From positions 30,613 through 94,612 of IMG/VR virus record IMGVR_UViG_3300036985_002287: a stretch of 64,000 nucleotides of DNA. The stretch is one strand, 5' to 3'. The notes beneath the pieces were generated by a model. It searched no databases and had not been told where the DNA came from. It was given only the letters and a program-made list of their open reading frames with translations. The stretch is from a virus (lineage: Duplodnaviria > Heunggongvirae > Uroviricota > Caudoviricetes). Every line of letters starts with the position of its first letter. Position 1 is the stretch's first letter. This document shows positions 15,099 through 60,983 of this stretch, in pieces. A program made the translations under genes and the position numbers.

Positions 15099-15304
15099 TG
15101 TCTGAATTGAGGTTTATCGAATTTAGCTAAACTTGCCGCCACAATATCTTTTGCATCACTCTCTGACAAACTGTTTGTTTCTTCCCATTGTTCATTATCT
15201 TCGTTCCAAATAAGAATGCCACCTAGGTTATTGATTTTGTAGAAACCCGAAATAGTATGAACCAATACATATTGAAGAATGATTGCTTTGTGTGCTTGCA
15301 TCAT
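15095..15304 (-). CDS. hypothetical protein
   Basis: 69 aa ORF; ATGA overlap with GGDEF gene. Confidence 0.5.
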   Translation of the reverse strand: MMQAHKAIILQYVLVHTISGFYKINNLGGILIWNEDNEQWEETNSLSESDAKDIVAASLAKFDKPQFRH

Positions 15305-15978
15305 CTATTTATTACTTCTGGAGGTATTCCATGATATAGGTCGATACCGGACTTCTTAGCATAATACATGGCGCAATCAGCGTGATACATCAATGAAGTA
15401 TAATCTTCACCGTGAATTGGGTAAGTAGTCACTCCTACACTGAGACCAACACTAAGATTAGTTCCAGAAATCTCCATTGGCAATTCGACACTCTTTATTA
15501 GATTAATATATTCCACATCAGATAATTCGCCCTTGACTAATATAACAAATTCGTCGCCGCCCAGCCTAGCTGAAATATCACCTTTTCTTAAAGAATCCTG
15601 CATTCTTTCAGCTATGATCTTTAATACGTCGTCGCCCACACGATGCCCGTAGGTATCGTTTATGTATTTGAATTTACATAAATCTATCAATACTAGTTGA
15701 AATTTATCTCCTCGCTTAATAAATTTCTTAAATTCCTTATTAAAGGAACTTCGATTGAATAACCCTGTGAGTGCATCATATTTTGCAAGAGTGACCATTT
15801 CGGACCAGGAAGAATATTGTATAACCATAGGGATAAGTAATAAACATGATACCACAGCATCTACTAAATAATGTAGAACATGTGGCAACACGATTAGTTC
15901 ATGCATAAGATGGATGATAGATATACACCCGGAGAATGCTAGGCATAATACCGTAGCATGAATGATATTTGCTTTCAT
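15301..15978 (-). CDS. membrane-anchored GGDEF-domain diguanylate cyclase
   Basis: Two N-terminal hydrophobic helices; YDALTGLFNR, HRVGDDVL, RLGGDEFVIL (GGDEF) motifs. Confidence 0.8.
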   Translation of the reverse strand: MKANIIHATVLCLAFSGCISIIHLMHELIVLPHVLHYLVDAVVSCLLLIPMVIQYSSWSEMVTLAKYDALTGLFNRSSFNKEFKKFIKRGDKFQLVLIDLCKFKYINDTYGHRVGDDVLKIIAERMQDSLRKGDISARLGGDEFVILVKGELSDVEYINLIKSVELPMEISGTNLSVGLSVGVTTYPIHGEDYTSLMYHADCAMYYAKKSGIDLYHGIPPEVINR

Positions 15979-16942: not shown

Positions 16943-16997
16943 TACCTTCATACGCTTATATGCGCGAATTTTGTACGCGATTTTGGTGCAGGATTTC

Positions 16998-17032
16998 TAT
17001 TTTAAAATCCAAATCCCAAATTTAAATCTGAG
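16998..17032. promoter_or_regulatory. 35-nt conserved intergenic element, copy A
   Basis: tattttaaaatccaaatcccaaatttaaatctgag; 31/35 identical to 43391-43425. Confidence 0.6.
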
Positions 17033-43322: not shown

Positions 43323-43341
43323 CGTTATTCCTGTGTATAGG

Positions 43342-43365
43342 TAGAAAATTTACGTAAATTTTCTA
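43342..43365. promoter_or_regulatory. 24-nt perfect palindrome (operator-like)
   Basis: TAGAAAATTTACGTAAATTTTCTA equals its own reverse complement. Confidence 0.7.
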
Positions 43366-43368
43366 GGT

Positions 43369-43384
43369 TCAGATTTTAATCTGA
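43369..43384. promoter_or_regulatory. 7-2-7 inverted repeat
   Basis: TCAGATT-TT-AATCTGA. Confidence 0.6.
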
Positions 43385-43390
43385 GAATGA

Positions 43391-43425
43391 TATTTTAAAA
43401 TCCAAATCTGAAATGTAAATCTGAC
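43391..43425. promoter_or_regulatory. 35-nt conserved intergenic element, copy B
   Basis: tattttaaaatccaaatctgaaatgtaaatctgac; 31/35 identical to 16998-17032; carries AATCTGA repeats. Confidence 0.6.
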
Positions 43426-56645: not shown

Positions 56646-57054
56646 TTAGTTGCAGGCGCATCGGGCAACTTCCTTGCCACGATAATCAGCAATTGCTGCC
56701 TTCACTGCATCCTCTGCAAGAATTGAGCAATGTATCTTAACCGGAGGTAGTGCCAATTCTTCTGCAATTTGCGAATTCTTAATAGTTGCTGCTTCGTCTA
56801 GTGTCTTACCTTTTACCCATTCGGTAACTAAAGAACTCGACGCAATAGCTGACCCGCAACCATATGTCTTAAATTTTGCATCTTCGATGATGCCTGTAGC
56901 GGGATTTACTTTTATTTGGAGTTTCATTACATCTCCGTTAACCGCACGCTGGGGCGCCGACAATGCCGGTTCCAACGTGCGTATTCTCCTTATCTAAATT
57001 CCCGACATTACGGGGGTTTTCATAGTGGTCAATCACTTGTTTACTATAGGACAT
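56646..57054 (-). pseudogene. iscU: IscU Fe-S scaffold gene interrupted by a 7-nt insertion (in-frame TAA after Cys of GAPACG)
   Basis: ATG 57054: MSYSKQVIDHYENPRNVG...GAPACG-stop; removing TAACGGA restores ...ACGDVMKLQIKV...TYGCGSAIASSSLVTEWVKGK...PPVKIHCSILAEDA. Confidence 0.7.
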
Positions 57055-57628
57055 TTTTAGTTCTCCTTCTCTCATGAGCAAGTTTCATGGATATAGATCT
57101 CTTGAGACGTGTTTCTTCGGAGACCTCCTTACCTCTGTTTCCTGCTTGAATCTTTAATTTAGTTTCCGCGGAATGTTGTTTACCTAACATGGGGCCGGGT
57201 TTACCATATCCGTGATGTTTTTCTCCAGAAAACTGTTTTAATTTTGTTTTTTGTTCTTCAGACATAATCCTGCCAAAACAAACATTCTTCTCCCCGAGCA
57301 TAGATTCGCTTTTCTTACGTTTTTCTTCTTCTGTCCAGGCTCTTCCACCCTTAGAATGGCCTATCTTACCCACATTACCTTCGCCGCCATCGGATTTATT
57401 CTGTAATATGCCTGTATTAATATCTTTTCTTCCCCACCACGCAATCATCCTGCGTTCTATCGCCCAGGCACCTATCTCGGATAATTTAGATTCAAGAATC
57501 ACAATTTTCGACTTATCGTTAGGTCTGTTTATGTTTGTGTGCTTTTCCCAGGCTCTCCTGTTTTTACCTTTCCCTATGTAGTAAGGTTTACCGGAGTTAC
57601 CTATATATGCATATACATAGAACATCAT
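57044..57628 (-). mobile_element. GIY-YIG homing-endonuclease gene (Seg-like, NUMOD3-type repeats)
   Basis: YVYAYIGNSGKPYYIGKG (GIY-YIG); repeated G..HSxETKxK motifs; free-standing between sigma-like gene and iscU, overlapping both. Confidence 0.75.
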
Positions 57629-58761
57629 ACACGTCCAAATGCGTTGCCGGTAAGTGCTTCATTTGAGCCTTTATATTGGTGTGGATCGTATCCATGTATA
57701 GGAGAAAAGAGTCCTTTGCGTTCGTTTTCGTCTGCCCTCGGTTGGCCAAAACGATGCATCTGATCCGGCATTACTCTATCTAACCAAGAGACCACGAATG
57801 GACGGATATCTCGATTAGGCTCGGTGTCCTCTAGTGTTCTTATTTGATCATTCAACTCGTCATCATCTATAATTTCTATTAGGTAGATAGATGCTACTGC
57901 TGCTGGAATAGGATTTTCCATTATTCGCTTAACTACTTCGAAATCATCGTCTGTCAACGGTAACTTGTTCACTGATTCATTGACTCTACCTACTGGTCTG
58001 AAATCGTATTTGTCTGGATTTTTATCTTCTCTGCCTAAGAATACGGCGGTGTTACTGGCCTTCCCTGGCGTTTTATATATGTGGCCGGGAACCCTTTTGT
58101 TCGTAGATTTATCGTATATTTCGTAATATTTAACATCTCCGGCAGTAGCATTGTTAGTAATATTAGGTGTAGGAATCTTAGATAACTCCTTAGCCCGGTC
58201 GATATAAGCTGCCTTCATGATTCCCCGTAATCCACTTGCTTCGAGTTGTCTGATTCTTTCTCTGGTGACACCCATTTGTTCCGCAATTTCCTGGTATGTC
58301 ATTTCACCAAATACTCTCATCTTAATTACTTCGGCAATTCTGTCGGGTAGCATTGACATATACTTTTTAATAACCTGATCTCGGGTCATTGGGCTAAGTT
58401 CTTCTTCATATCCGTCGTCAGGTACTGAACTTAGTGGTTCAGCATTATCTGCCGGGTCAGGTCTTAAAGTGGGCATCTGCTCTCCACGATAGGTAGCGCC
58501 ATCCGGATTATATAGACTCATCTGTTGTTTAGGATTTGCTTCAGTTATAGCAATTTCTTTTATTGCTGCTTTGAATTCATCATAGTCTGTCTTCAAATGT
58601 GCTTTTAAGAATTCTTTTCCAGACTTAGATGTTTTAGGATCACATATCTTATCTACATATCCGGTCATGCGCTTTTGCAAGGCATCGATCTTTTTGATTT
58701 TTTGAGGCGATAGACTCTTGTCGGAAGTGCCTTTAGGTAATAGGATTTCTAAAATTCTCAT
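57625..58761 (-). CDS. sigma-70 region-4-like HTH protein (atypical sigma factor or transcription regulator)
   Basis: RIAEVIKMRVFGEMTYQEIAEQMGVTRERIRQLEASGLRGI = region 4.2 signature in mid-protein; no region 2 recognised. Confidence 0.5.
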   Translation of the reverse strand: MRILEILLPKGTSDKSLSPQKIKKIDALQKRMTGYVDKICDPKTSKSGKEFLKAHLKTDYDEFKAAIKEIAITEANPKQQMSLYNPDGATYRGEQMPTLRPDPADNAEPLSSVPDDGYEEELSPMTRDQVIKKYMSMLPDRIAEVIKMRVFGEMTYQEIAEQMGVTRERIRQLEASGLRGIMKAAYIDRAKELSKIPTPNITNNATAGDVKYYEIYDKSTNKRVPGHIYKTPGKASNTAVFLGREDKNPDKYDFRPVGRVNESVNKLPLTDDDFEVVKRIMENPIPAAVASIYLIEIIDDDELNDQIRTLEDTEPNRDIRPFVVSWLDRVMPDQMHRFGQPRADENERKGLFSPIHGYDPHQYKGSNEALTGNAFGRV

Positions 58762-58790
58762 ATTGTATTTATCTTATTTATTGCGTAGTC

Positions 58791-58817
58791 AAAAGAAAAG
58801 GGGCACGAGCCCCTTTT
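58791..58817 (-). terminator. intrinsic terminator
   Basis: GGGGC-TCGT-GCCCC followed by TTTTCTTTT on minus strand. Confidence 0.7.
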
Positions 58818-58832
58818 CAGACATTATCAATA

Positions 58833-59198
58833 TTAGATATTGAATTCTGTAGCAATAGACTTAGGAACTAAGTCGATACTATATTCCTTAGCTTTTCCAA
58901 TGATTGTAGGAAGAGCGAAAATAGCACCTGGCACGGCCACAAGTGCTGCGAATGAAGTTGCCTTCATTAATTCTTTAGCATTTGTATTGGCAGCAGCAAG
59001 TTCTTTTGGAGTTGCATCACCCAACATAGCTTTCTGATAGACACGTGTCATCTCTTGAGCATTGGTAACTTCTGTAGTAATAACAGATTGTACTTTTTCA
59101 AATACAACTTTTGCTGCCTGAGGTGTCTTAGGGATAGATTCAAACATGTCTGTCATAGACTTGATGAAGGCTTGTGGGGTTTTGATAGATGTGAACAT
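58833..59198 (-). CDS. hypothetical protein
   Basis: 121 aa ORF with own terminator. Confidence 0.55.
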   Translation of the reverse strand: MFTSIKTPQAFIKSMTDMFESIPKTPQAAKVVFEKVQSVITTEVTNAQEMTRVYQKAMLGDATPKELAAANTNAKELMKATSFAALVAVPGAIFALPTIIGKAKEYSIDLVPKSIATEFNI

Positions 59199-59321
59199 TT
59201 TTAATTTCCTTATAAAGTGCCATAATTGGCCACTATTGCAATTTACTGCCTCACCATGAGCACAGTTCTTGTAGTGTAACAGTATTTATGTGCGGTCGCA
59301 ACAATTCTGTATAATATCGGT

Positions 59322-59555
59322 TTATAATGTCGGTTTTGGCTCTGTTGATTCTTTAATCTTAACACCAGCACTGCCCGCGCCTAAGAGTGATCCGTATGCT
59401 AGGCCGAAATTTACCATATCAAAAGCACCGCTCTTGTATATTTGGAATCCTGAAAATCCTAAGAAACAAACTACACCAACGATCCATAACCATCTTGCCG
59501 GATCATGCGTCTCGCCGTCCGGGCCTGTGAGTAAATCTTTAATCATTCTATTCAT
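59322..59555 (-). CDS. small membrane protein
   Basis: 77 aa; hydrophobic helices WLWIVGVVCFLGFSGF and GLAYGSLLGAGSAG. Confidence 0.5.
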   Translation of the reverse strand: MNRMIKDLLTGPDGETHDPARWLWIVGVVCFLGFSGFQIYKSGAFDMVNFGLAYGSLLGAGSAGVKIKESTEPKPTL

Positions 59556-59567
59556 TTTTACCTCCTA

Positions 59568-60533
59568 TTATTGCGGAACCTGATAAGAGTATATAATATG
59601 GCACAAACCGCTGCCCGAAGATCCTGCAACAGTTGCTATAACTTGCTCGGAGGCCCCTATTGTGAAGAATATATCGGCCTCATATATACCTGCAGTTTGT
59701 AAATCATTCTCCGTTGTTAACATAAATGCATCTATACCATCTGTAACAGATCCTACGCAAAGTGTAGCTGTAGTGTCGGGTACATCTACTAATACCTTGA
59801 CTGATAGAAGTGTCGAATTCGTAGGAATAAAGGTTCCTATCACAGTTGTGCCATCGACATTTAATGGTACTTCTGTCTGTAAAGATTTCACGGCCCCTGC
59901 TGCTGCGCCTGTTGTTATCGCATTATCTACATAAAATTTATTTGTTAAATCGTTTTCTGCAAGGCCTGTTGCATAGTCAACTGCTGTAGGCCCTATAATA
60001 GACAATTTATTAGTAATTCCTGCCGGCAATGATAGATATAGTGAGCCGAGTATAGAGGTTAATGTTAGTGTAGTATTACCCACTACTTCTAAGGATTCCG
60101 CAGCAGCCGATTCTAATATACCGCCGCCAGTTGTGCCTATTATAACCGACCCATTTCCATTCGGTATGAGTGTTATACTATAATTAGGTGCAATAGATGA
60201 TAGTGTTACACCTAGAGTATCTGTTGCAAGCCTGGCGCCATTTAGCCCGCCTATGAATAATGTACCATTTAGTCCATCCGGTATAAATGCTAATGCAGGA
60301 TCGGTTTGTAAAGGTAGCGTACCTTTGCCAAAAAGAATTTGGTTAGGTTCGAAATAATCGTTTCCAGTACCTCCCGACGGTACATCAAGTATAGTCGTAT
60401 TGCTATTTTGTTCGGCATTAATAAATGCCTTTCTTACCGAATCATATACAAGTGTTTGTCCTTGTTGTATATTCTTTATGAAGAATGTCGGTACATACTG
60501 ATTTAGTAAGGTGTTTTGTCCTACAATTGACAT
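59568..60533 (-). CDS. putative virion / fibre-like protein
   Basis: 321 aa, Gly/Thr/Asn/Ser/Leu-rich beta-type composition; no motif. Confidence 0.4.
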   Translation of the reverse strand: MSIVGQNTLLNQYVPTFFIKNIQQGQTLVYDSVRKAFINAEQNSNTTILDVPSGGTGNDYFEPNQILFGKGTLPLQTDPALAFIPDGLNGTLFIGGLNGARLATDTLGVTLSSIAPNYSITLIPNGNGSVIIGTTGGGILESAAAESLEVVGNTTLTLTSILGSLYLSLPAGITNKLSIIGPTAVDYATGLAENDLTNKFYVDNAITTGAAAGAVKSLQTEVPLNVDGTTVIGTFIPTNSTLLSVKVLVDVPDTTATLCVGSVTDGIDAFMLTTENDLQTAGIYEADIFFTIGASEQVIATVAGSSGSGLCHIIYSYQVPQ

Positions 60534-60545
60534 CGATATTATCCT

Positions 60546-60983
60546 TTATAAACTCAACAGAACACAATCAATTTGTCCATATTGCCATGTACTCCATTGT
60601 GGATTGACAACTACAGGTTGTAAATAATCGCGAGTTAATACTGCTCTCAGAAATACAAAATTTCCAATAAATGTGACTGCCATAGACCCGGTATCTCCAC
60701 CATTATTTCCTGTAGGTGCATAAGGGTCGAGTGGATATGGAATGAAGGGGGTATTAACGTCACCGTTTGGATTTAACTTAATCCAAAACCAATCTTCAGG
60801 TTGCGGATTTATGGCAAGAGTTCCTTGTATGCCAAATCCACCTACAAGATTTTGATATATTACTTGAACTGTGCATACTCCGTTGTCGTACCCGTAATAG
60901 GCATTTCCGCGAATAGGTTCCCCGATAACATTCCAATTTGTGCCTGTATTAGATAGCATCATTATACTTTTTCTGATAGCCAT
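60546..60983 (-). CDS. hypothetical protein
   Basis: Start trimmed to MAIRKS (GAAGGAA SD). Confidence 0.5.
   Translation of the reverse strand: MAIRKSIMMLSNTGTNWNVIGEPIRGNAYYGYDNGVCTVQVIYQNLVGGFGIQGTLAINPQPEDWFWIKLNPNGDVNTPFIPYPLDPYAPTGNNGGDTGSMAVTFIGNFVFLRAVLTRDYLQPVVVNPQWSTWQYGQIDCVLLSL

What the first reader, a model, noticed from the sequence alone, without database searches (positions are those of the whole stretch)
57625..58761. Protein with only a sigma-70 region-4 module embedded mid-sequence
Residues around 125-190 read ...LPDRIAEVIKMRVFGEMTYQEIAEQMGVTRERIRQLEASGLRGI. This is a textbook sigma region 4.2 / LuxR-type HTH. I cannot recognise region 2 (the -10 binding and core-binding helix). 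The HTH is followed by a C-terminal domain of about 190 aa of unknown type. This may be a highly divergent phage sigma factor, a sigma-appropriation or decoy factor, or a plain DNA-binding regulator. Non-sigma70-like conserved elements (findings at 16998 and 43391) could be its targets.
Basis: partly seen in the sequence, partly recalled or inferred. Interest (0 to 1): 0.5.

Follow-up and report, generated by a model that had tools for sequence, protein, structure and literature searches.

The report
Mobile sigma region-4 cassette in phage protein
This jumbo-phage protein is not a sigma factor: it is a fast-evolving two-part scaffold whose middle slot holds a swappable, strongly conserved copy of the promoter "-35 box" reading domain of bacterial sigma-70, a module that related phages move between different proteins, probably to aim them at host RNA polymerase or its promoters.

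Summary
ORF 57625-58761(-) encodes 378 aa with a bona fide Sigma70_r4 domain (Pfam E=1.8e-13) and no region 2.

It is not a sigma factor. About 75% of its roughly 180 detected homologues are ~245 aa proteins with no sigma domain. The family core is residues 1-72 plus 259-378. The segment between them is a slot holding interchangeable cassettes: sigma-4, DUF6934-like, or other unknown types.

The sigma-4 cassette always carries a conserved ~38 aa leader. It is scattered over the family tree. It is a clean 426 nt indel between proteins 92-94% identical. It lies in a 98.9%-identical recombination tract between phages whose flanks have dS 0.55-0.84. It also occurs in four unrelated protein architectures, and it is under strong purifying selection (dN/dS 0.03).

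Its recognition helix (VTRERIRQLEA) matches primary sigma. The window carries 15 consensus TTGAC-N17-19-TATAAT promoters, against 0.39 expected by chance.

Most likely role (inferred, not shown): a trans-acting module that targets or competes for RNA polymerase or -35 boxes, carried on a modular host-takeover protein. The scaffold's own function and fold remain unknown. I rate it a new variant of a known kind, of moderate to high interest.

The parts
57625..58761 (-). Whole ORF, 378 aa plus stop: scaffold-family protein carrying the sigma-4 cassette
58546..58761 (-). Conserved N block (residues 1-72): helical hairpin, present in essentially all family members from Met1
   Evidence: Occupancy about 1.0. 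pLDDT above 90 for residues 20-70. 92.4% nt identity to L008 ends exactly at 58546.
58426..58536 (-). Leader of the cassette (residues ~76-112): QQxSxYxPDGxTYRGExMPTLxxDPxDNAEP motif, always found N-terminal to the sigma-4 module. Nature unknown.
   Evidence: Not aligned to sigma region 3.2 by hhalign.
58177..58425 (-). Sigma-70 region 4 module (residues 113-195; regions 4.1 and 4.2; Pfam match residues 135-179 = 58225-58359)
   Evidence: Predicted helices 127-137, 140-150, 156-162, 167-176, 178-194.
58234..58269 (-). Recognition helix V165-S176 (VTRERIRQLEAS). The residues that read the -35 box are identical to those of primary sigma.
57988..58137 (-). Optional 'YEVYD' alpha/beta module (residues 209-258). 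Absent, duplicated or placed before the sigma-4 cassette in other members. Also found as stand-alone 50-70 aa phage proteins.
57628..57987 (-). Conserved C block (residues 259-378): helical domain plus a conserved, predicted-disordered tail (LSPIHGYDP..YKG..TGNAFG). Holds 21 invariant residues.
57848..58632 (-). Recent recombination tract shared with phage L015: 98.9% nt identity (9 mismatches in 785 nt), inside a gene whose ends are 70-81% identical and a genome that is 75-78% identical
57982..58545 (-). Segment replaced by unrelated sequence in the otherwise 85-92% identical locus L008
58795..58818 (-). Intrinsic terminator hairpin just upstream of the gene, conserved with compensatory stem changes in six loci
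58764..58774 (-). Invariant AGATAAATACA box 3-5 nt before the ATG, with no Shine-Dalgarno sequence. Function unknown.

Best explanation
The gene encodes a modular accessory protein of an uncultured clade of T4-like (Rak2/Atu_ph07-type, group 2) jumbo phages. It does not encode a sigma factor. What is shown: a conserved N-terminal helical hairpin (residues 1-72) and a conserved C-terminal helical domain with tail (259-378) form the family core. The stretch between them is a recombination hot spot in which unrelated cassettes are exchanged. In this phage the slot holds a 'leader + sigma-70 region 4' cassette plus a small alpha/beta module. The cassette is a self-contained, horizontally mobile, strongly constrained unit that also sits in at least four other phage protein architectures. 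What is inferred: the sigma-4 module works in trans as sigma-70 region 4 does. It docks on the RNA polymerase beta-flap tip, binds TTGACA-type -35 boxes, or both. It thereby brings its carrier protein to host RNA polymerase or sigma-70 promoters, or competes with host sigma-70 region 4 there. In this phage the -35-reading residues equal those of primary sigma, and the phage's own early genes are driven by consensus -35/-10 promoters. The most likely outcome is modulation, such as shut-off or re-targeting, of -35-dependent transcription during host takeover. The biochemical role of the scaffold core is unknown.
For: Architecture. Homologues align to residues 1-74 and 209-378 only, and about 75% are ~245 aa with no insert. 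Minimal 180-192 aa versions fuse the N and C blocks directly. Synteny is conserved (small TM ORF, family gene, DsbA-like, PolB, clamp), including on a 344 kb contig.

Cassette diversity. The slot holds sigma-4, DUF6934-like or other cassettes. Of the 60 best 50%-identity representatives, 8 have sigma-4, 14 have DUF6934-like, and 2 have both.

Mobility. Sigma-4 members sit at 7 or more separate places on the core tree. P0003 and P0112 are 92-94% identical around a clean in-frame 426 nt indel. Window versus L008 is 92% identical up to codon 72, then non-homologous, then 85%. Window versus L015 has dS 0.84 and 0.55 in the flanks but zero synonymous changes in codons 73-258, within a 98.9%-identical tract. 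The cassette occurs in non-family proteins L010, L012, L013 and L014.

Constraint. dN/dS is 0.03 for the cassette in L013 versus L014.

Sigma-4 identity and target. Pfam, PDB and hhalign all match region 4. Eight of 9 sigma-70 -35 contact positions are kept. The window has 15 exact TTGAC-N17-19-TATAAT sites, all on the coding strand, against 0.39 expected.

Fast evolution typical of host-interaction genes. The scaffold is 48-52% identical where PolB, DsbA-like and ClpA-like are 83-84%.
Against: No experiment or complex model shows binding to the beta-flap or to DNA. The recognition helix is not conserved across all cassette copies (P0005, P0010, P0012, P0047 and P0050 differ), so a single shared DNA target is excluded. 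The AF2 confidence of the insert is only 56-72 pLDDT. The scaffold core has no informative fold or sequence relative, so 'effector carrier' is an analogy. The leader motif, the best-conserved part of the cassette, is unexplained. The timing of expression is unknown: no clear promoter was identified for the gene.
Confidence: 0.5

Rival explanations
1. A plain sequence-specific DNA-binding regulator. The sigma-4 HTH is used like a LuxR/GerE-type HTH to bind operator sites (TTGACA-like here, others in other phages) without touching RNA polymerase, for example as a repressor of early promoters.
For: Weak secondary hits to GerE, HTH_7, KorA and HTH_3. The recognition helix varies between lineages, as expected for regulators with different operators. 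The window has 15 TTGAC -35 boxes that could serve as operators.
Against: Region 4.1, which in sigma factors builds the beta-flap pocket and is not needed for a simple HTH regulator, is retained in all copies along with a conserved leader. The best matches are always sigma region 4, not LuxR.
Confidence: 0.2
2. The region-4 half of a split or minimal sigma factor. It supplies beta-flap and -35 binding while a separate phage protein (gp55-like or region-2-like) supplies core binding and -10 recognition, as in B. subtilis SigO-RsoA or T4 gp55+gp33.
For: Group 2 jumbo phages are reported to encode 'minimal' single-HTH sigma factors and gp33 orthologues (PMC7824862). The gene lies beside the DsbA-like gene and the clamp, as T4 gene 33 does. 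TIGR02937 is formally passed, 43.7 vs 42.9 bits.
Against: Most orthologous scaffolds lack the cassette, and near-identical phages differ in having it. It therefore cannot be an essential basal factor. The same cassette sits in unrelated proteins. No region-2-like or gp55-like ORF was found in the window or related loci, although these cover only part of the genomes. The core is unrelated to gp33.
Confidence: 0.15
3. A decoy of sigma region 4 that soaks up proteins which bind sigma-4: host anti-sigma factors or activators, or a defence system that uses a sigma-4 domain, such as MzaA of the MZA anti-phage system.
For: The best specific NCBIfam and PADLOC match of the cassette is the C-terminal sigma-4 of MzaA (P0003: 63 bits, against 44 for RpoD). 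The locus is hypervariable and fast-evolving, as anti-defence genes are.
Against: The match covers only the generic sigma-4 region and is far below the MzaA cutoff of 800 bits. Retention of the DNA-reading residues under purifying selection is not required of a pure protein decoy. No link to MZA-carrying hosts was shown.
Confidence: 0.08
4. A functionless passenger: a fragment of a captured rpoD-like gene that recombination carried into a tolerant linker.
For: The cassette is dispensable for the family. The slot tolerates many unrelated inserts.
Against: dN/dS is 0.03 in the cassette. The cassette is conserved, with intact reading frames, in 5 or more protein contexts and many lineages, together with a conserved leader. 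In the 6%-diverged variant it changed no more than the scaffold.
Confidence: 0.03

Closest known systems
Sigma-70 family region 4 (Pfam PF04545; primary sigma RpoD/SigA regions 4.1-4.2)
   Same: Clear sequence homology over the whole four-helix domain. The recognition helix VTRERIRQLEA is almost identical to that of RpoD/SigA, and 8 of 9 -35 contact residues are kept.
   Different: There are no regions 1.2-3. The domain sits in the middle of an unrelated protein, is preceded by a novel conserved leader, lacks the 4-residue loop of RpoD, and moves between proteins as a cassette.
T4 gp33 (late-transcription co-activator that occupies the beta-flap in place of sigma region 4)
   Same: A phage-encoded small module expected to use the same docking site on RNA polymerase. 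The gene is next to a DsbA-like gene in a T4-like replication/late-transcription module.
   Different: No sequence or profile similarity (hhalign 0.15%). gp33 does not read DNA. In T4, gene 33 lies downstream of dsbA, whereas this gene lies upstream.
'Minimal' single-HTH sigma factors of group 2 jumbo phages (Iyer et al. 2021, PMC7824862)
   Same: Same phage group (PolB closest to Phosso, Atu_ph07, Vibrio 2.275.O and Rak2-like phages), and the same idea of a sigma-derived single HTH that contacts the flap.
   Different: Those are described as stand-alone basal factors. Here the HTH is an optional, exchangeable insert in a scaffold that usually lacks it.
MzaA of the MZA anti-phage system
   Same: A large non-sigma protein ending in a sigma-4 domain. 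It is the best specific profile match to the cassette.
   Different: Only the ~65-residue sigma-4 part matches (41-63 bits against a cutoff of 800). MzaA is bacterial and acts in defence, and it has a different architecture.
Polyvalent / domain-shuffled phage effector proteins (Iyer et al. 2017, cited in PMC7824862)
   Same: Small modules are shuffled among different multi-domain phage proteins. Modules are shared between the scaffold family and L010, L013 and L014.
   Different: These proteins are much smaller. No known toxin or anti-restriction domains were found, virion packaging was not shown, and here the variation is confined to one slot between two fixed blocks.
B. subtilis SigO-RsoA (YvrI/YvrHa) two-subunit sigma (from my own knowledge)
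   Same: A polypeptide that has sigma region 4 but no functional region 2.
   Different: No partner has been identified, and the cassette is non-essential and mobile.

Membership tests
Sigma-70 family sigma factor | Region 2 (core binding, -10 recognition and melting) | tested here: not met
   [not shown]
Sigma-70 family sigma factor | Region 4 (4.1 plus the 4.2 HTH) | tested here: met
   PF04545 E=1.8e-13. hhalign 97.5% over 4.1-4.2.
Sigma-70 family sigma factor | Passes a curated whole-protein family threshold | tested here: inconclusive
   TIGR02937 scores 43.7 bits against a cutoff of 42.9, but only model positions 96-160 of 165 are matched. All specific sigma models (RpoD, RpoS, RpoH, FliA, ECF) fall far below their cutoffs.
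Sigma-70 family sigma factor | Binds core RNA polymerase and directs promoter-specific initiation | not testable with these tools
   Needs biochemistry.
T4 gp33-like late co-activator | Sequence or profile similarity to gp33 | tested here: not met
   hhalign of the family profile against T4 gp33 gives probability 0.15%. phmmer with gp33 finds nothing in the window or related loci.
T4 gp33-like late co-activator | Gene adjacent to dsbA in the replication/late module | tested here: inconclusive
   The gene is adjacent to a DsbA-like gene, but upstream of it. In T4 the order is rnh-dsbA-33-59.
MzaA (MZA defence system) | Full-length MzaA architecture above the curated cutoff | tested here: not met
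   41.1 bits against a cutoff of 800, and only the C-terminal sigma-4 is matched.
Two-part scaffold family (new, unnamed) | Conserved N block (residues 1-72) and C block (259-378) with invariant E262, P268, D273, F274, IPA285-287, DD300-301, W326, MPDQ331-334, H356, G357 | tested here: met
Two-part scaffold family (new, unnamed) | Conserved genomic position upstream of DsbA-like, PolB and clamp | tested here: met
Polyvalent (injected multi-domain) phage proteins | Shuffling of modules among different proteins | tested here: met
   The leader+sigma-4 cassette and other modules are shared with L010, L012, L013 and L014.
Polyvalent (injected multi-domain) phage proteins | Packaged in the virion and delivered with the DNA | not testable with these tools
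   Needs virion proteomics.

The most novel reading that the evidence does not exclude
Phages of this clade possess a portable 'leader + sigma-4' addressing module. Recombination pastes it into unrelated carrier proteins (the two-part scaffold, nucleotidyltransferase-like proteins and others) to deliver them to the beta-flap of host RNA polymerase or to sigma-70 -35 boxes. The two-part scaffold would then be a polymorphic host-takeover effector with a single exchangeable payload or address slot. This would be a modular RNA-polymerase-targeting system not described before.
Probability: 0.3. Interest if true: 0.75.

Novelty: new variant of a known kind. Interest (0 to 1): 0.58.

Why it matters
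First, it corrects an automatic annotation. JGI calls this protein an 'RNA polymerase sigma factor (sigma-70 family)', and the match rests on the region-4 half of one generic model.

Second, it shows that sigma region 4, normally an inseparable part of sigma factors, can exist in phages as an independently mobile, strongly constrained protein cassette with its own conserved leader. That gives a concrete, testable entry point into how large T4-like phages without their own RNA polymerase manipulate -35-dependent transcription.

Third, it defines a widespread but uncharacterised jumbo-phage protein family with a single hypervariable domain slot: 439 representatives at 50% identity, and none in cultured phages. 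Exchange in that slot can be dated from synonymous divergence, which makes the family a clean natural system for studying in-frame domain swapping.

Tried and rejected
2. Scaffold is a gp33 homologue: rejected. My recollection of the T4 gene order was checked: gene 33 is adjacent to dsbA but on the other side.
3. The syntenic ~240-250 aa proteins of the cultured relatives are remote homologues: rejected. The Vibrio 2.275.O protein is a tail-collar protein and the Phosso protein is unrelated.
4. The leader is sigma region 3.2: not supported by hhalign. A MAFFT co-alignment is only suggestive.
5. An alternative promoter class in the 45-64 kb block: neither TGTTACACTA nor TATAAATA is enriched.
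8. GenBank phages: no DNA or protein match to the gene. The cassette gives only weak generic sigma-4 hits.
9. T4 gp55, AsiA, MotA and gp33 as single-sequence queries against the window and related loci found nothing. This is uninformative, since even the DsbA-like gene is missed.
10. The literature search for MzaA was swamped by unrelated strings.
11. Positive selection in the transferred tract (8 non-synonymous, 0 synonymous changes) is not statistically significant and is not claimed.

Full report
**Observation.**
ORF 57625..58761 on the minus strand encodes 378 aa. Residues 135-179 match Pfam Sigma70_r4 (E=1.8e-13, 50 bits, cutoff 24) and Sigma70_r4_2. phmmer against all PDB sequences returns only region 4 of SigA/RpoD/RpoS/RpoH, and the Thermus SigA alignment shows the identical recognition helix GVTRERIRQ(I/L)E. 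No region 2 or 3 is detected at E<=1. NCBIfam explains the public annotation 'sigma-70 family': the generic model TIGR02937 just passes (43.7 vs 42.9 bits) using only model positions 96-160 of 165, and all specific sigma models are far below threshold.

**The protein is an insertion variant of a non-sigma family.**
The large protein database returned 184 homologues. Local BLAST and MAFFT show that they share residues 1-74 and ~209-378 with the query. About three quarters are ~245 aa with nothing in between and no Pfam domain. An exhaustive profile search found 439 representatives at 50% identity (60 with E<=1e-30). These include minimal 180-192 aa forms in which the N hairpin is fused directly to the C-domain, stand-alone C-domains, and stand-alone copies of a small 'YEVYD' module. 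The invariant core is therefore residues 1-72 plus 259-378.
- AF2 models these parts confidently (pLDDT above 90) and the insert less so (56-72).
- The core is unrelated to T4 gp33.

**Genome context.**
The window is part of a large phage genome; close variants sit on contigs up to 240-344 kb. PolB is 38-43% identical to Sinorhizobium phage Phosso, Vibrio phage 2.275.O, Atu_ph07 and Rak2/121Q-like jumbo phages. This is group 2 of Iyer et al. 2021, whose members lack their own RNA polymerase and are reported to encode sigma factors and gp33 orthologues (PMC7824862).
- The order 'small TM ORF, family gene, (Fe-S protein or homing endonuclease), DsbA-like, PolB, clamp-like' is conserved in all loci examined.
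- No GenBank phage has the gene. The syntenic proteins of the cultured relatives are unrelated.
- Against the related phage L009, PolB, DsbA-like and ClpA-like are 83-84% identical, but the scaffold is only 48-52%. The locus evolves fast.

**The middle is a cassette slot.**
The inter-block segment ranges from about 45 to about 430 residues and contains unrelated modules:
- a sigma-4 cassette;
- DUF6934-like cassettes (one or two copies, some with a zinc ribbon);
- at least three further unknown cassettes;
- the YEVYD module, which may be absent, duplicated, or placed before or after sigma-4.

Among the 60 best representatives, 8 carry sigma-4, 14 carry DUF6934-like, and 2 carry both.

**The sigma-4 cassette is mobile.**
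1. On a tree of the conserved blocks, sigma-4 carriers occupy at least seven separate positions, next to short members or members with other cassettes.
2. P0003 and P0112 are 92-94% identical on both sides of a clean in-frame 426 nt indel that is the cassette.
3. The window and L008 are 92.4% identical at nucleotide level from 61000 down to 58546 (codon 72). They are then non-homologous until 57982, then 85% identical.
4. Against L015, the N and C blocks have dS 0.84 and 0.55 (dN/dS about 0.1), while codons 73-258 have no synonymous difference at all. The mismatch map defines a 785 nt tract (gene nt 130-914) of 98.9% identity, inside a genome that is 75-78% identical. This is a recent recombination tract carrying the cassette.
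5. A degenerate DNA pattern for the leader motif found the same cassette in proteins that lack the scaffold blocks. L010 has a cytidylyltransferase-like N-terminus and modules shared with other slot cassettes, and lies upstream of a DsbA-like/PolB pair. L012, L013 and L014 have other architectures. There were no hits in 185,579 reference genomes.

**The cassette is functional.**
It always consists of a ~38-residue leader (QQxSxYxPDGxTYRGExMPTLxxDPxDNAEP), an acidic linker, and regions 4.1 and 4.2. Between L013 and L014 it has dS 0.45 and dN 0.014 (dN/dS 0.03), tighter than the preceding part of the same protein (0.24). In the 6%-diverged variant P0261, only 5 of 24 substitutions fall in the 123-residue cassette and none in the recognition helix.

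**Predicted specificity.**
The residues that contact the -35 element in primary sigma are, in E. coli numbering, R554, R562, T583, R584, E585, R586, R588, Q589 and K593. The window protein keeps 8 of the 9, and P0003 and L010 keep 7 of 9. Other lineages have different recognition helices. hhalign aligns the cassette to sigma-70 4.1-4.2 at 97.5% probability but does not align the leader to region 3.2.

The window contains 15 exact TTGAC-N17-19-TATAAT sites (9 TTGACA, 5 TTGACT, 1 TTGACC). All are on the coding strand just upstream of genes between 0.9 and 44.6 kb; 0.39 are expected by chance, and none lies in the 45-64 kb block. The phage therefore relies on host sigma-70 for many genes, and the cassette is predicted to read the same -35 box. 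The repeats at ~16998 and ~43391 are CAGATTT/GGATTT arrays, not TTGACA-like.

**Mechanism (inference).**
The best-supported reading is a trans-acting sigma-4 module. It either addresses its carrier to RNA polymerase (beta-flap) or to -35 boxes, or competes there with host sigma-70 region 4, modulating -35-dependent transcription. This is conceptually close to what T4 achieves with AsiA and gp33.

The rivals are a plain HTH repressor, the region-4 half of a split sigma, a decoy for sigma-4-binding proteins (the cassette's best specific profile match is the sigma-4 of the defence protein MzaA), and a functionless passenger. They are weighed in the rival explanations section above. The split-sigma idea is weakened by the cassette's dispensability and promiscuity. 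The passenger idea is weakened by the purifying selection.

**What remains unknown.**
- The role of the scaffold core and of its conserved disordered C-terminal tail.
- The nature of the leader.
- The expression class of the gene. It is preceded in six loci by a conserved terminator and by an invariant AGATAAATACA box that abuts the ATG without a Shine-Dalgarno sequence. Neither a T4-late box nor an extended -10 motif is enriched.

**Verdict.**
The feature is real and was correctly spotted, but its nature differs from what was proposed. It is a mobile sigma-4 cassette in the hypervariable slot of a new jumbo-phage scaffold family. Known kinds (sigma region 4, sigma-4-only proteins, shuffled phage effectors) cover the parts. 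The combination and the demonstrable cassette mobility are new.

Noticed in passing
window 899-44563, minus strand: Fifteen exact TTGAC-N17-19-TATAAT consensus sigma-70 promoters lie just upstream of genes, all on the coding strand (0.39 expected by chance). None lies in 45-64 kb, which suggests a boundary between promoter classes or temporal classes near 45 kb.
   Followed up: partly
window 56646-57081 (minus strand), insertion near 56940: The IscU/NifU-like gene is broken by a 7 nt insertion that creates a TAA inside the conserved APACGD motif and splits it into 47 aa and 109 aa ORFs. The gene is intact (133 aa) in L008 and L015. This is either a pseudogene or an assembly error.
   Followed up: yes
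window 57044-57628 (minus strand): A free-standing GIY-YIG/NUMOD3 homing endonuclease overlaps the stop codon of the scaffold gene by 4 nt. It is absent at that position in L001, L003, L007 and L008 (L008 has a SAM synthetase there). L015 has NUMOD3 endonucleases at two other places in the same module. Endonuclease-induced repair could drive the cassette exchange.
   Followed up: partly
window 58764-58818 (minus strand); same position in L001, L002, L003, L007, L008: A conserved intrinsic terminator with compensatory stem changes is followed by TTGAnT and by an invariant AGATAAATACA box 3-5 nt before the ATG, with no Shine-Dalgarno sequence. All five ATAAATAC copies in the window are on the coding strand in intergenic DNA. 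This could mark a leaderless mRNA, a translational operator or an unusual promoter.
   Followed up: partly
window ~16950-17010 and ~43340-43420 (minus strand): Clusters of CAGATTT/GGATTT-type short repeats lie in two intergenic regions (the other first-stage findings). They do not resemble the -35 box predicted for the sigma-4 cassette.
   Followed up: no
window 15301-15978 (minus strand): A 225 aa protein with a hydrophobic N-terminal half and a clear GGDEF motif (RLGGDEFVILV), possibly a phage-encoded diguanylate cyclase. It matches only PHROGs of unknown function.
   Followed up: no
window 57600-60550: This is a hypervariable island. The scaffold, the 121 aa TM protein, the 77 aa membrane protein and the 321 aa fibre-like protein are 43-54% identical to L009, while the flanking ClpA-like, 164 aa, DsbA-like and PolB genes are 83-84% identical.
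   Followed up: partly
[not shown]
   Followed up: no
L010 rc 157-1822; L012; L013; L014: These are multi-module phage proteins that carry the same leader+sigma-4 cassette without the scaffold blocks. L010 also has a cytidylyltransferase-like domain and modules seen in the slot of P0059 and P0110. The sigma-4 of L012 keeps the RpoD-like tail RKLRHPDR.
   Followed up: partly
family members P0070, P0073, P0082 and others: The DUF6934-like slot cassettes have a pattern of strands, a GxTGTGN loop, a helix and an E.SR.KLY helix. By eye this resembles the core of a GNAT-type fold. It was not tested.
   Followed up: no
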